In this document: piece by piece, positions 26,905 through 29,900 of the stretch
How the letters are laid out: each line of letters opens with the position of its first letter
Numbering within the stretch: position 1 is the first letter of the stretch
Virus record (IMG/VR): IMGVR_UViG_2609460332_000008
DNA from: a virus
Taxonomy: Duplodnaviria > Heunggongvirae > Uroviricota > Caudoviricetes
Reading direction: 5' to 3' (one strand)
Length of the DNA stretch: 64,000 nucleotides
Program-made: the position numbers and the translations under genes
Notes under the pieces: model-generated
Seen by the model: only the letters and a program-made list of their open reading frames with translations
Database searches by the model: none
Told to the model about the DNA's origin: nothing

Positions 26905-27171
26905 ATGAAAAACAGTGAACAACCTTATGATGTTGCAGGGTATACCATTGCCTCAAGGTTGCTGATACTCCTTGTCAGAAAGGGGCTGATTACCGCAGAG
27001 GAAGGAAAAACAATCCTCAAATCCGCTGCAGTCGTAGCTGCAGAGGCTCCGGTATTGAGAACAACGAATGATTCCGCCCTGCAAATATCGCAGCTAATCA
27101 CTGAAACCATCAGTTTGTTAGACCAAGATCCTGATGAATATCAAAAGCCTCAGCCATCTGAGCATCCGTAA
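26905..27171 (+). CDS. Candidate opposite-strand small protein (88 aa) in a gap of the Mu early operon
   Basis: ATG at 26905 preceded by AGGAAG at 8-nt spacing; protein-like composition; competes with a 61-aa minus-strand ORF (26925..27110). Confidence 0.3.
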   Translation: MKNSEQPYDVAGYTIASRLLILLVRKGLITAEEGKTILKSAAVVAAEAPVLRTTNDSALQISQLITETISLLDQDPDEYQKPQPSEHP

Positions 27172-27424
27172 GAATATCTTTATTTGATAGCCCCAGCCTG
27201 CGACGAATGTATTCCTCGCGGGCTGCTTCATTTTGTAGCGCCACGGCAGCTTCCACCTGGTTCATTTCACGGTTAATAATGCTCCGGACTTCTCTGGCGG
27301 TGAGGTCATGCTCAATACCATATTTAACGATATCGTGCATACGTTCCAGCATCTTTAAATTAGCCATGACGCCATCAATATCAACTGGTGTGAATTTCAT
27401 TTCTTTATTCTCTGGTTTATTCAT
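27110..27424 (-). CDS. Hypothetical early-region protein (about 105 aa)
   Basis: ORF in the semi-essential early region; start placed at internal Met MNKPENKEMKF. Confidence 0.4.
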   Translation of the reverse strand: MNKPENKEMKFTPVDIDGVMANLKMLERMHDIVKYGIEHDLTAREVRSIINREMNQVEAAVALQNEAAREEYIRRRLGLSNKDILTDAQMAEAFDIHQDLGLTN

Positions 27425-27599
27425 TTCGTAATACCTCTTCGCAATAAAAGATTTCACTGGGATAACGTTTTTGTATGCGCTCCATCACCTGCATACATGC
27501 CTGTTCTGTGGGCCAGATTTTTTCCGTTACCGGAATGGCATCGCAGGCATCATTCCCACAGGTGCCAACCAGCAGGACAAAGCCAATTGACTTAATCAT
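27417..27599 (-). CDS. Small putative lipoprotein (about 60 aa)
   Basis: MIKSIGFVLLVGTCGNDAC signal peptide with a lipobox-like LVGTC. Confidence 0.4.
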   Translation of the reverse strand: MIKSIGFVLLVGTCGNDACDAIPVTEKIWPTEQACMQVMERIQKRYPSEIFYCEEVLRNE

Positions 27600-28131
27600 G
27601 CTCGCTGATTTCCTGTGTTTCCGCCGGAACCGGTGAATAATCAAGAATGAGATAGCGCAGGACGTGGTCGGTGATATTCCAGCCACTGGAACCACAAATA
27701 AAGCGCCCCAGCCGGATATCGATATACGCCATCACAAAACGGGGCATCCCCTGTTTGCACATCTCGTCATCCACTTCAGCAACGATGTAAACCGACTCGC
27801 AGGTCAGTACGCCTGTCGCAAATTCTTTTGCCAGTGCCGGAATTGCATTGCCTTCCAGCCAGGGCAAAGAGCGGCGGAACGCACACCATTGAGCATCATC
27901 AACAGCGGGGTGCTCCGTTGCGTTTCGTCTTACAGGAGGCGTCGGACGAGGGCGCGGAACATCATAAAATCCGTTGCATTCTGTCAGCATTCCGGCATCA
28001 ACCGCATCACGCAGGAAATACACCATTGACGAGGGAGGCATCTTCATTTTTTCAGCCAGAACGCCACAGGTCAGACGCCCGTAAGCCCGTAATAATGTGC
28101 TGACACCGTTCAGAACTTTTGCATCAACCAT
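27592..28131 (-). CDS. Hypothetical early-region protein (179 aa)
   Basis: ORF downstream of gam in the early operon. Confidence 0.45.
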   Translation of the reverse strand: MVDAKVLNGVSTLLRAYGRLTCGVLAEKMKMPPSSMVYFLRDAVDAGMLTECNGFYDVPRPRPTPPVRRNATEHPAVDDAQWCAFRRSLPWLEGNAIPALAKEFATGVLTCESVYIVAEVDDEMCKQGMPRFVMAYIDIRLGRFICGSSGWNITDHVLRYLILDYSPVPAETQEISEHD

Positions 28132-28229
28132 TTTTTATTCCTTAGTAGTTTGTTTCAGGCGCGAGCAATCCCCTGACGCATCGCGCCATAATTAAAAGAA
28201 AGTGAATTAATTAAATATTCGTGGTGGTA

Positions 28230-28754
28230 TTAAATACCGGCTTCCTGTTCAAACGGAATAATAGAAAAATCTTCAATGCCCGATTTAACTGTAATTCCGG
28301 CAACACCTGCGACCGCTTTCGGTTCCAGTAAAATCGCTTCCTTGTTGATTTCCTGTTTCGTGCGAATAAAACGTTGCAGGCCAAGACGCTCCAGCGTTTC
28401 CATCACCGCATCCACACCGCGAATACTTACCGATGGCGGGCGCTGACGCCATGACACATCGCCGGTTACCAGGTTTGCCGTCTTCACCTTGCCACCGTTC
28501 GTCAGTTCGTCGCGGTTCGCTTCACACCATCCCTGAACGCCTTTTGAAAGGGTTTCAATACTGGTTTTAAGTGGCGCAATCTGTGAGGCGTATTTCTCCG
28601 TAATATCAGCGATAGCGTCATTCATTTCCGTTTCAAGTCGTGCTGCTTCGCGTTGCAGGTCCCCAATCCGGCGGATATCACATACCACGGCATCGCGGGA
28701 TTGCGGAACATAAGCCGCTGCGGCGTTCTTGATTCGTTTTGCTGGTTTAGCCAT
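28230..28754 (-). CDS. gam: Host-nuclease inhibitor protein Gam (Ku-like DNA end-binding protein)
   Basis: 174-aa translation MAKPAKRIKNAAAAYVPQSRDAVV...GITVKSGIEDFSIIPFEQEAGI closely matches remembered Mu Gam. Confidence 0.85.
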   Translation of the reverse strand: MAKPAKRIKNAAAAYVPQSRDAVVCDIRRIGDLQREAARLETEMNDAIADITEKYASQIAPLKTSIETLSKGVQGWCEANRDELTNGGKVKTANLVTGDVSWRQRPPSVSIRGVDAVMETLERLGLQRFIRTKQEINKEAILLEPKAVAGVAGITVKSGIEDFSIIPFEQEAGI

Positions 28755-28774
28755 ATAAATAAAGCTCCTGTTAA

Positions 28775-29065
28775 TTAATATTCACTGTATACAATGCTGG
28801 ATACAGCACGATTGCTTAATTCCATCTTTTGGGCTATCACATGAATAGCTAGCCCTTCTTTATAAAGTTCACGACACAAATATTTGTCGTGCTCACTGAT
28901 TCGGTAAACACACAACGATATTCCGTGCCTTCTGGCATGTGCCCGGAGAGCGGTTGTGGCAACTTTCAGTTTTTTCGCCATTTCTTCGACGGTCATTTTT
29001 CCGACATTGGCTTCGATAAATTCCCGGTCTTCGCGTGACCATCTTTTGCGAGGGATTATCATCAT
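28775..29065 (-). CDS. Hypothetical early-region protein (96 aa), possible DNA-binding protein
   Basis: ORF between kil-like region and gam; basic helix-turn-helix-like segment TVEEMAKKLKVATTALRAHARRHG. Confidence 0.4.
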   Translation of the reverse strand: MMIIPRKRWSREDREFIEANVGKMTVEEMAKKLKVATTALRAHARRHGISLCVYRISEHDKYLCRELYKEGLAIHVIAQKMELSNRAVSSIVYSEY

Positions 29066-29076
29066 GCCTCCTGCAA

Positions 29077-29346
29077 TTAATGTTTAGCTGCATCCGGGTT
29101 ATACCGGAATAACTCGCCTTCGGCTTCCAGCCCAAGTTCTCTGGCTGACTTCAACAACTCCTGGGTTGCTTTTTCAATAATTTCAGGAGCCATGCTCTTG
29201 ATAATGCCTGCCATCACGTCATGCGGTCCGATTTGCTCCTTAGGAGACTGTTCTTCCAGTTGCACACTCATTCCTACAAAGAAACCTCCTTTTTTCTGAA
29301 ACTCAACATCTTCCATGCGGTTAAATTCAAAGATTACTTTTTCCAT
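29077..29346 (-). CDS. Hypothetical early-region protein (about 89 aa)
   Basis: Acidic small ORF; start placed at internal Met MEKVIFEF. Confidence 0.4.
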   Translation of the reverse strand: MEKVIFEFNRMEDVEFQKKGGFFVGMSVQLEEQSPKEQIGPHDVMAGIIKSMAPEIIEKATQELLKSARELGLEAEGELFRYNPDAAKH

Positions 29347-29387
29347 TTTGTTTCTCCTTTCAAATATCATTTGTCATATAGCAGGAT

Positions 29388-29669
29388 TTATTTACGTCTT
29401 ACGCCTGCCTTACGTGGACGTGTAACCCTGAATCTGACATCACGACAAAACTTAATTAATGCCTTTTGTGCCAGTCGCTGATTTGGCGCTTCCGGGATAC
29501 CCGGAACCAGCAATTGCACCGGAGCTGTTCGGGAATGTCGCGCGAGTACTTCAATTGCATCTTTTACCGCTTTTTCTTCGCCGCTGATGACTGGTAAGGC
29601 ACCATCAGGAACCTTATCGCCAAACTCAATCAGGCCACTGGCCCAGACATAAGCCGTAATTTTTTTCAT
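29388..29669 (-). CDS. Hypothetical early-region protein (93 aa)
   Basis: ORF in the early operon; basic C-terminus. Confidence 0.4.
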   Translation of the reverse strand: MKKITAYVWASGLIEFGDKVPDGALPVISGEEKAVKDAIEVLARHSRTAPVQLLVPGIPEAPNQRLAQKALIKFCRDVRFRVTRPRKAGVRRK

Positions 29670-29672
29670 CTT

Positions 29673-29900
29673 TCATCTCCAGATAATCTGACAACCATTA
29701 AGGCGGGCCGTCCATACTGAACGGGCAACCCCTGATTTATGCTCCATAATTCTGATGGCGTTCCTGACCAGCTCCGGTGGCGGGCAGGTAATTTCAAGCA
29801 CCGGGCGGGCTACGCCCAGCCAAGATTCGTTGACGTGGCTGCCGCGCTCCTGTAACCAGGTCTTTACTTCCGTCGCCATTTTGATATTCCGTGACATCAT
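29673..29900 (-). CDS. Kil-like small protein (about 75 aa), first gene after B
   Basis: Position equivalent to Mu kil; call based on position only. Confidence 0.4.

What the first reader, a model, noticed from the sequence alone, without database searches (positions are those of the whole stretch)
27110..29900. Cluster of small uncharacterised early genes around gam: candidate host-takeover or anti-defence functions
Apart from gam, the genes between B and gemA (27110..27424, 27417..27599, 27592..28131, 28775..29065, 29077..29346, 29388..29669, 29673..29900) encode small proteins with no obvious motif beyond a lipoprotein-like signal (27417..27599) and a helix-turn-helix-like segment (28775..29065). 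In Mu this semi-essential region encodes host-directed functions. Early-expressed small proteins of transposable phages are a known source of anti-restriction and anti-defence activities, so these are reasonable candidates for undescribed inhibitors.
Basis: inference. Interest (0 to 1): 0.5.

Follow-up and report, generated by a model that had tools for sequence, protein, structure and literature searches.

The report
Mu-like prophage semi-essential early genes
This is the well-known but mostly function-unknown early accessory gene region of a Mu-like prophage in E. coli, and two of its slots carry non-Mu genes, one from a widespread phage family that databases wrongly call a "host nuclease inhibitor".

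Summary
The seven ORFs are real. They match the RefSeq gene calls of E. coli KFu019 (100% identity), and each hits a phage protein family. Together they are the semi-essential early (SE) region of a Mu-like prophage, on the minus strand between B and gemA.

Five are orthologues of Mu proteins:
- gp7, the D108-type allele
- gp9, 93%
- gp11, 87.5%
- gp14, 71%

Only Kil and Gam have known host-directed roles. Mu gp6, gp8, gp12 and gp13 are absent.

Two ORFs are non-Mu cassettes:
- 29388..29669 belongs to a large family (about 1000 clusters at 50% identity) that sits beside Gam or DUF3164 in transposable phages. Its database name, "host nuclease inhibitor", traces to a one-base frameshift in the phage D3112 record. 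It is not related to Gam. Its predicted fold is confident but has no clear relative.
- 27417..27599 is a 60-residue protein with four invariant cysteines. It is shared with integrase-type temperate phages.

No ORF matches a known anti-defence family. The anti-defence idea is reasonable but has no direct support. The region is an ordinary mosaic variant of a known region, of low to moderate interest.

The parts
29673..29900 (-). kil (Mu gp5 orthologue, 75 aa), a host-killing and cell-shape-altering early protein
   Evidence: 84% identical to Mu Kil over its full length. phrog_2743 'Kil protein', E 7.8e-39. Expression of Mu kil gives spherical E. coli cells (PMC3961180, citing Waggoner 1989).
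29388..29669 (-). o93: a 93-aa non-Mu cassette in the slot that holds gp6 in Mu. It belongs to a widespread family of transposable-phage early proteins that is mis-named 'host nuclease inhibitor'.
29077..29346 (-). gp7 orthologue (89 aa, D108-type allele) with a hypervariable stretch at residues 10-39
   Evidence: 75% identical to D108 gp7 and 42% to Yersinia phage YpM_5 gp7. Only the N-terminal MAKVIxE motif is shared with Mu gp7. E. coli alleles range from 61 to 97% identity, with the variation concentrated in residues 10-39. The AF2 model is poor, pLDDT 54.8.
28775..29065 (-). gp9 orthologue (95-96 aa), a small protein with two HTH-like segments
   Evidence: 93% identical to Mu gp9. phrog_323 'transcriptional regulator, D5-like', E 1.6e-27. 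Only sub-threshold Pfam and NCBIfam HTH or sigma-70 region 4 hits.
28230..28754 (-). gam (Mu gp10), a Ku-like dsDNA-end-binding protein that blocks RecBCD
   Evidence: 92% identical to Mu Gam. Pfam Phage_Mu_Gam, E 2.9e-43.
27592..28131 (-). gp11 orthologue (179 aa), function unknown
   Evidence: 87.5% identical to Mu gp11. Pfam Gp11_C (PF25754), E 3.3e-39, over residues 90-167. phrog_1949, E 4.6e-104. No solved relative.
27417..27599 (-). o60: a 60-aa non-Mu cassette that replaces Mu gp12 and gp13. It has four invariant cysteines and a hydrophobic N-terminus.
   Evidence: No hit to Mu gp13. phrog_16556, E 1.4e-28. Homologues occur in integrase-type temperate phages of Yersinia, Aeromonas and Hafnia, in early accessory regions near Lar, RecT and methyltransferase genes. 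C14, C19, C35 and C53 are invariant. The gene is present in 49 of 5426 E. coli genomes.
27110..27424 (-). gp14 orthologue (104 aa), function unknown
   Evidence: 71% identical to Mu gp14. phrog_6075, E 2.4e-42. No solved relative.
26905..27171 (+). gp15 orthologue (88 aa) on the opposite strand, convergent with and overlapping the end of gp14.
   Evidence: 53% identical to Mu gp15. phrog_8747, E 3e-25. PGAP CDS WP_079916120.1.
26280..26831 (-). gemA (Mu gp16), which bounds the region
   Evidence: 81% identical to Mu GemA. Pfam GemA, E 8.2e-33. The PGAP start is at window 26831.
29914..30852 (-). B (the MuB transposition ATPase), which bounds the region
   Evidence: 90% identical to Mu B.

Best explanation
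The cluster is the semi-essential early (SE) region of a Mu-like (Muvirus-type) prophage integrated next to ygbI in E. coli KFu019.

It lies on the same strand as ner-A-B, so by analogy with Mu it should be transcribed as part of the long early operon once the c repressor is lifted. That step is inferred, not shown.

Gene order here is kil, o93, gp7, gp9, gam, gp11, o60, gp14, then gp15 on the opposite strand, then gemA and mor.

Two members have established host-directed mechanisms. Kil kills the host and makes cells spherical. Gam is a Ku-like dimer that caps linear DNA ends and keeps RecBCD off them.

The other members are conserved but functionally unknown Mu accessory proteins, plus two cassettes swapped in at gene boundaries by mosaic recombination:
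- o93 replaces gp6, and gp8 is lost.
- o60 replaces gp12 and gp13.

For o93, my best guess is a small adaptor protein that acts in the same early DNA-end-protection and replication-onset module as Gam or DUF3164. This is inferred only from its gene neighbourhood.

For the remaining unknowns, host takeover or anti-defence roles are possible but undemonstrated.
For: Identity and annotation: the window is 100% identical to NZ_CP091700.1, and PGAP calls the same CDSs.

Orthology to Mu by blastp:
- B 90%
- Kil 84%
- gp9 93%
- Gam 92%
- gp11 87.5%
- gp14 71%
- gp15 53%
- GemA 81%
- Mor 63%
gp7 is 75% identical to D108 gp7.

Family hits: Pfam Phage_Mu_Gam, Gp11_C and GemA, and a PHROG family for every ORF.

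Mosaic structure: nucleotide homology to Mu breaks at or close to gene borders, at 29667/29359, 29321/29041 and 27623/27410. The closest relative, STEC388, lacks o93 but is 98.5% identical from gp7 to gemA.

o93 neighbourhood:
- It lies directly downstream of gam in DMS3 and JBD93.
- It lies directly upstream of gam in Erwiniaceae Mu-like prophages.
- It follows kil and precedes a gp7-like gene and DUF3164 in Salmonella Mu-like prophages.
- Among 31 non-redundant clusters from 80 IMG/VR contigs, 30 lie in a Mu-type early region (MuB upstream and/or GemA downstream detected). 16 are within 100 nt of Gam or DUF3164, and 29 are within 700 nt.

Literature: SE genes are 'largely uncharacterized' apart from kil, gam and gem (PMC3820752, PMC4553209). 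Mu kil gives spherical cells (PMC3961180). In JBD30, a Pseudomonas Mu-like phage, Gam and GemA interact with the host RecBCD and Gabija axis (PMC12407980).
Against: - Nothing here shows transcription, expression timing or phenotype for this prophage.
- The link between o93 and Gam is guilt by association. The sample is phylogenetically non-independent, and all genes in a 3-5 kb operon are near each other anyway.
- In this window o93 is separated from gam by gp7 and gp9 (634 nt).
- One family member sits in a ParA/ParB-like operon and another in a podovirus with no annotated gam gene in the 5 kb examined. The family is therefore not strictly tied to Gam.
- No sequence or fold match gives a biochemical activity for o93, gp7, gp9, gp11, o60, gp14 or gp15.
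Confidence: 0.85

Rival explanations
1. One or more of the unknown small proteins (o93, the gp7 allele, o60, gp14, gp15) is a dedicated inhibitor of a bacterial defence system.
For: - The genes sit in an early operon of a temperate phage.
- The swapped cassettes have a patchy distribution. o93 is in 2 of 5426 E. coli genomes and o60 in 49 of 5426, while 92 of 5426 carry this type of region.
- The cassettes are exchanged at gene borders.
- gp7 alleles run from 61 to 97% identity, with variation focused on residues 10-39. Neighbouring genes are about 84-93% identical to Mu.
- o60 homologues lie beside Lar and methyltransferase genes in other temperate phages.
Against: - No hit to any described anti-defence family in Pfam, NCBIfam or PHROGs.
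- The core of o93 is strongly conserved from Pseudomonas to Enterobacteria, with 15 invariant positions. This fits a conserved core function at least as well as an arms-race inhibitor.
- Mosaicism is general in phage early regions and is not specific to anti-defence loci.
- There are no experimental data.
Confidence: 0.25
2. o93 really is a host nuclease (RecBCD) inhibitor, as its NCBI and PHROG name states.
For: - The name appears on phrog_1518 and on most NCBI homologues.
- The gene is frequently adjacent to gam.
Against: - The name can be traced to the D3112 record. There a single-base deletion 48 nt before the gam stop codon, relative to DMS3 and JBD93, fuses gam in frame to the downstream gene. 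The result is a 266-aa 'Gam'.
- In DMS3 and JBD93 the two genes are separate, joined as TGA-c-ATG.
- o93 has no Pfam Phage_Mu_Gam hit and no fold match to Ku or Gam.
- About two thirds of the sampled family clusters accompany DUF3164 rather than Gam.
Confidence: 0.1
3. o60 is a small phage lipoprotein exported to the envelope, for example for superinfection exclusion, as the reader's 'lipoprotein-like signal' implies.
For: - The hydrophobic N-terminus GF(V/L)LLV is followed by an invariant cysteine at position 14.
- Several homologues carry canonical lipobox-like V-S-A-C or V-S-S-C.
Against: - The window allele reads V-G-T-C, which fails the canonical [LVI][ASTVI][GAS]C pattern.
- The pre-cysteine segment is only 11-13 residues long, and several homologues have no positively charged n-region.
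- Four invariant cysteines (C14, C19, C35, C53) fit a metal-binding or disulfide mini-protein equally well.
- The Mu gene it replaces, gp13, is also a 60-aa cysteine-rich protein.
Confidence: 0.3

Closest known systems
Semi-essential early (SE/SEE) region of bacteriophage Mu (Mup05-Mup16; NC_000929) and D108
   Same: - Same position, between B and gemA/mor, and same strand.
- Orthologues of kil, gp7 (D108-type), gp9, gam, gp11, gp14, gp15 and gemA.
- 85-88% nucleotide identity to Mu and D108 in the conserved blocks from B to gp11, falling to about 74% from gp14 to mor.
   Different: - Mu gp6, gp8, gp12 and gp13 are absent.
- The gp6 slot holds o93, and the gp12-gp13 slot holds o60.
- gp14, gp15 and mor are more diverged, at 71%, 53% and 63%.
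- mor is followed directly by a GH108-type endolysin rather than by gp18-20, C and lys.
DMS3-12 / JBD93 gp13 (the gene immediately downstream of gam in Pseudomonas Casadabanvirus; phrog_1518)
   Same: About 40-50% identity to o93 over the 75-residue core, with the same conserved motifs (WASGLI.FG, P.GA, ARH, LLVPG[IV]PEA). It is an early-region gene of a transposable phage.
   Different: In Casadabanvirus it directly follows gam. Here it follows kil and is separated from gam by gp7 and gp9. The C-terminal tails are unrelated, and the window copy has a basic tail. I found no published function for either.
Mu Gam / Ku family (Pfam PF07352)
   Same: Shares only the database label 'host nuclease inhibitor' and a gene neighbourhood with o93.
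   Different: There is no sequence or fold relationship. The shared label comes from the frameshifted D3112 gam record.
MbtH-like proteins (e.g. YbdZ, PDB 5ja1_B)
   Different: - 15% identity and no Pfam MbtH hit.
- Foldseek finds nothing.
- o93 has an extra conserved LLVPGIPEA segment and a long C-terminal helix.

Membership tests
Mu semi-essential early (SE) region | Lies between the transposition gene B and the middle-gene activator mor, on the early-transcript strand | tested here: met
   B is at 29914-30852, and gemA and mor at 26280-26831 and 25834-26283. All are on the minus strand, with c and ner upstream at 33279-33869 and 32883-33110.
Mu semi-essential early (SE) region | Contains orthologues of kil, gam and gemA | tested here: met
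   Kil 84%, Gam 92% and GemA 81% identity to Mu. Pfam Phage_Mu_Gam and GemA hits.
Mu semi-essential early (SE) region | Transcribed early from Pe and dispensable for plaque formation | not testable with these tools
   This needs transcriptomics and deletion genetics. The simple promoter scan found no internal sigma-70-like promoter on the minus strand, which is consistent with read-through transcription but does not prove it.
Mu Kil | Full-length sequence similarity to Mu gp5 | tested here: met
   84% identity over 74 of 75 residues. phrog_2743, E 7.8e-39.
Mu Kil | Expression kills the host and produces spherical cells | not testable with these tools
   The phenotype is reported for Mu kil (PMC3961180, citing Waggoner et al. 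1989).
Gam/Ku host-nuclease inhibitor (PF07352), considered for o93 (29388-29669) | Match to the Phage_Mu_Gam profile or the Ku-like fold | tested here: not met
phrog_1518 / DMS3-12-like family, considered for o93 | Profile match over the full length, with the conserved W9, G12-L13-I14, G17, P21, G23-A24-L25-P26, A43, H45, G57, P59 and E60 | tested here: met
   phrog_1518, E 1.6e-36, over residues 1-92. The invariant columns appear in a 31-sequence alignment.
MbtH-like proteins, considered for o93 | MbtH sequence signature or Pfam profile | tested here: not met
Bacterial lipoproteins, considered for o60 (27417-27599) | Signal peptide ending in the lipobox [LVI][ASTVI][GAS]C | tested here: inconclusive
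   The window allele reads V-G-T-C, which fails at positions -2 and -1. Homologues with V-S-A-C or V-S-S-C pass. The n- and h-regions are unusually short. No signal-peptide predictor was available.
HTH DNA-binding regulators, considered for gp9 (28775-29065) | Significant match to an HTH profile | tested here: inconclusive
   All Pfam and NCBIfam HTH hits are below their curated cut-offs. phrog_323 'transcriptional regulator, D5-like' matches at E 1.6e-27, but that name is not experimentally based.
Known anti-restriction or anti-defence protein families | Profile match to a described family | tested here: not met
   No such hits for any of the eight small proteins in Pfam, NCBIfam or PHROGs, and nothing significant in PADLOC, which holds defence-system models. 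No dedicated anti-defence library such as dbAPIS or EVADES was available.

The most novel reading that the evidence does not exclude
The o93 family (DMS3-12-like, about 1000 clusters at 50% identity) would be an unrecognised, conserved partner of the DNA-end-protection gene (Gam or its positional substitute DUF3164) in transposable phages. It would be a small adaptor with a fold of its own that modulates how phage DNA ends are seen by RecBCD or by end-sensing defences such as Gabija. By accident, the erroneous name 'host nuclease inhibitor' would then be close to the truth. Separately, the hypervariable loop of gp7 could be a specificity determinant in a phage-host arms race.
Probability: 0.2. 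Interest if true: 0.55.

Novelty: new member of a known kind. Interest (0 to 1): 0.25.

Why it matters
If any of these proteins proved to be an inhibitor of a host defence or repair pathway, Mu-like prophages would become a tractable source of such tools. These prophages are common in Enterobacteria and Pseudomonas.

On present evidence the practical value is more modest:
- The report gives a gene-by-gene map of this variant SE region.
- It flags a propagated annotation error. Many database entries, including most of the 120 listed close homologues, are called "host nuclease inhibitor" because of one frameshift in the D3112 record.
- It picks out three concrete candidates for experiment: o93, the variable gp7, and the cysteine-rich o60.

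Tried and rejected

2. Structure prediction of gp7 from a 17-sequence alignment. The model is poor (pLDDT 54.8), so I did not fold-search it.

3. Domain fusions of the o93 domain. Several longer proteins carry it, including a tandem duplication, but no fusion partner has a Pfam domain. This gave no functional lead.

4. The PDB sequence search for gp9, gp11, gp14 and the o93 profile found nothing significant.

5. The Rfam scan of 25.5-34 kb found no RNA family. The promoter and terminator scan found nothing above the shuffled expectation.

6. Literature searches for functions of Mu gp6-gp15, DMS3-12 or JBD30 gp14 found nothing beyond kil, gam and gem.

7. The D3112 'Gam fusion' as a Rosetta-stone argument for an o93-Gam link. 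I rejected it because the fusion is a one-base frameshift relative to DMS3 and JBD93.

8. The homologue search for o60 gave only 12 close relatives, too few for a useful structure prediction.
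Full report
**What is there**

The 64-kb window is 100% identical to the chromosome of E. coli strain KFu019, NZ_CP091700.1. The one exception is 28775-29065, which PGAP starts one codon later.

The ORFs lie on the minus strand, downstream of a Mu-type c repressor (33279-33869, plus strand), ner, transposase A and B. gemA, mor and a GH108 endolysin follow them. The genes are tightly packed, with overlapping or nearly abutting stop and start codons. Every one of them hits a PHROG phage protein family with E-values between 1e-25 and 1e-104. 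They are real genes, not chance ORFs.

The prophage occupies roughly 0.7-34.2 kb of the window. A Mom-family gene sits at its far end, at 755-1492.

**Gene-by-gene identity**

I compared the proteins by blastp with those of Mu, SfMu and Yersinia phage Tongde:

| Window coordinates | Identity |
|---|---|
| 29673-29900 | Kil/gp5, 84% |
| 28775-29065 | gp9, 93% |
| 28230-28754 | Gam, 92% |
| 27592-28131 | gp11, 87.5%, with Pfam Gp11_C |
| 27110-27424 | gp14, 71% |
| 29077-29346 | no blastp hit to Mu gp7, but 75% identical to D108 gp7 |
| 29388-29669 (o93) | no counterpart in Mu, D108, SfMu or Tongde |
| 27417-27599 (o60) | no counterpart in Mu, D108, SfMu or Tongde |

The 29077-29346 protein has the same length and position as Mu gp7 and shares its N-terminal MAKVIxE motif. 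Mu gp6, gp8, gp12 and gp13 are absent.

Nucleotide homology to Mu breaks at or close to gene borders, at 29667/29359, 29321/29041 and 27623/27410. This is the usual mosaic pattern of module exchange.

The literature calls this the semi-essential early region. It says its functions are largely uncharacterised apart from kil, gam and gem (PMC3820752, PMC4553209, PMC8705779). Mu kil expression makes E. coli cells spherical (PMC3961180).

**The o93 cassette (29388-29669)**

This is the most informative piece. It hits phrog_1518, named 'host nuclease inhibitor', and NCBI gives most homologues the same name. It has no Pfam Phage_Mu_Gam hit.

tblastn against phage genomes located the homology in the C-terminal third of the 266-aa 'Gam' of Pseudomonas phage D3112. 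In DMS3 and JBD93, gam (172 aa) and the homologue (DMS3-12, JBD93 gp13) are separate genes joined as TGA-c-ATG. Aligning the three DNAs shows that D3112 lacks one base 48 nt before the gam stop codon. This shifts the reading frame into that of the downstream gene. The 'fusion', and with it the family name, is therefore a frameshift artefact or mutation in one record. It is not evidence of function.

The family is large:
- 157 close homologues
- 997 clusters at 50% identity with E<=1e-3
- 15 invariant positions in a 31-sequence alignment

**Gene neighbourhood of o93**

- In Salmonella Mu-like prophages it follows kil and precedes a gp7-like gene and DUF3164, which sits where gam would be.
- In Erwiniaceae Mu-like prophages it lies immediately upstream of gam.
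- In Casadabanvirus it lies immediately downstream of gam.

I then examined 80 IMG/VR contigs, which collapse to 31 clusters at 90% identity. Thirty clusters lie in a Mu-type early region, with MuB upstream and/or GemA downstream detected. Sixteen are within 100 nt of Gam or DUF3164, on either side, and 29 are within 700 nt.

This is moderate guilt-by-association evidence that o93 works in the same early module as the DNA-end-protection gene. There are exceptions. One relative sits in a ParA/ParB-like operon, and one in a podovirus with no annotated gam gene in the 5 kb examined. In E. coli the gene is rare, present in 2 of 5426 complete genomes. The closest related prophage, in STEC388, lacks it while being 98.5% identical from gp7 to gemA.

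**The o60 cassette (27417-27599)**

It belongs to phrog_16556 and occurs in 49 of 5426 E. coli genomes. Homologues occur in integrase-type temperate phages of Yersinia, Aeromonas and Hafnia, among early accessory genes near Lar, RecT, methyltransferases and xis/int.

The alignment shows a hydrophobic N-terminus and four invariant cysteines.
- The window allele reads V-G-T-C, which fails the canonical lipobox.
- The leader is very short.
- Some homologues do have V-S-A-C.

A cysteine-coordinated mini-protein is an equally good reading. The Mu gene it replaces, gp13, is also a 60-aa cysteine-rich protein.

**gp7**

E. coli alleles form a graded series from 97 to 61% identity. The substitutions are concentrated in residues 10-39. 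The N-terminus and the C-terminal half are conserved. Flanking genes are about 84-93% identical to Mu. This would fit a specificity or arms-race surface, but I ran no selection test, and the AF2 model is too poor to use (pLDDT 54.8).

**Anti-defence hypothesis**

None of the eight small proteins matches a described anti-restriction or anti-defence family in Pfam, NCBIfam or PHROGs, and none matches a PADLOC model. None has a solved relative.

What is established in this operon is limited:
- Gam antagonises RecBCD.
- Kil is host-directed.
- Recent work on the Pseudomonas Mu-like phage JBD30 shows that Gam and GemA each make the phage a target of Gabija (PMC12407980). These early proteins therefore sit at the defence interface, but as triggers rather than inhibitors.

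Its stated refutation condition, that all ORFs are characterised housekeeping proteins, is not met. No positive evidence was found either.

**Verdict**

This is a mosaic variant of the known Mu semi-essential early region, so I rate it a new member of a known kind.

The added value is threefold: the gene map, the correction of a propagated annotation error, and the identification of o93, gp7 and o60 as the specific candidates worth cloning.

Interest is 0.25. The most novel reading not excluded is that o93 is a conserved partner of Gam or DUF3164 that acts at DNA ends or on end-sensing defences. I give that a probability of about 0.2, with an interest of about 0.55 if true.

Noticed in passing
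L006 (D3112, AY394005) 4482-5282, compared with L008 (DMS3) 981-1782 and L009 (JBD93) 981-1779: The 266-aa 'Gam' of D3112 results from a one-base deletion 48 nt before the gam stop codon. This reads into the downstream DMS3-12-like gene. It appears to be the source of the name 'host nuclease inhibitor' now attached to phrog_1518 and to most NCBI entries of this family.
   Followed up: yes
window 26905-27171 (+): A gp15 orthologue lies on the strand opposite to the early operon, convergent with gp14 and overlapping its last 62 nt. It is conserved as an ORF in Mu, SfMu and Tongde but is only 53% identical here. Its promoter and role are unknown.
   Followed up: partly
window 26853-26872 (minus strand): A terminator-like GC-rich hairpin (GGCGGTGTTGCCGCACCGCC, followed by CCCTTTTCTG) lies just upstream of the gemA start and next to the start of the antisense gp15 gene. 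The total number of such sites in the region is not above the shuffled expectation.
   Followed up: no
window 29077-29346; alignment A3: gp7 alleles in E. coli Mu-like prophages range from 61 to 97% identity, with variation concentrated in residues 10-39 of an otherwise conserved 89-aa protein. The Stx2c-associated Mu-like element (L007) carries two gp7-like paralogues in tandem.
   Followed up: partly
L011-L013 (Salmonella) and many IMG/VR loci L023-L101: Many Mu-like prophages have a DUF3164 protein (PF11363, phrog_846, function unknown) at the position where Mu has gam, and no Gam. DUF3164 may be a positional, and possibly functional, substitute for Gam.
   Followed up: partly
L022 1644-1937: An o93-family gene lies between a ParA-like ATPase gene and a ParB/SopB-like gene on a contig that also carries an Hha gene and a tail-fibre-like gene. 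This may be a phage-plasmid, so the family is not confined to transposable phages.
   Followed up: no
window 25152-26283: mor (149 aa, 63% identical to Mu Mor) is followed directly by a GH108-type endolysin. The Mu genes gp18-gp20 and C have no counterpart between them. Rightward of mor the prophage departs from Mu.
   Followed up: no
window 755-1492 (-): A Mom-family protein (Pfam PF25680, E 7e-76) lies at the right end of the prophage. This is the classical Mu anti-restriction DNA-modification function, and it sits outside the region under study.
   Followed up: partly
window about 43500-63900 (+): A second, lambdoid prophage lies about 9 kb beyond the Mu-like prophage's left end. It encodes a lambda-type terminase large subunit gpA, a lambda-family portal, a tape-measure protein and the tip attachment protein J.
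   Followed up: partly
L005 4378-4859 (STEC388): In the closest related prophage, gemA is annotated as a frameshifted pseudogene. The gp7-to-gp14 block there is 98.5% identical to the window.
   Followed up: no
window 28132-28229: A 98-nt non-coding gap between gam and gp11 contains a 7-bp GC-rich inverted repeat (GGCGCGA...TCGCGCC). The homology to Mu and D108 runs through the gap. In SfMu and Tongde a DUF5420 gene is inserted here.
   Followed up: no
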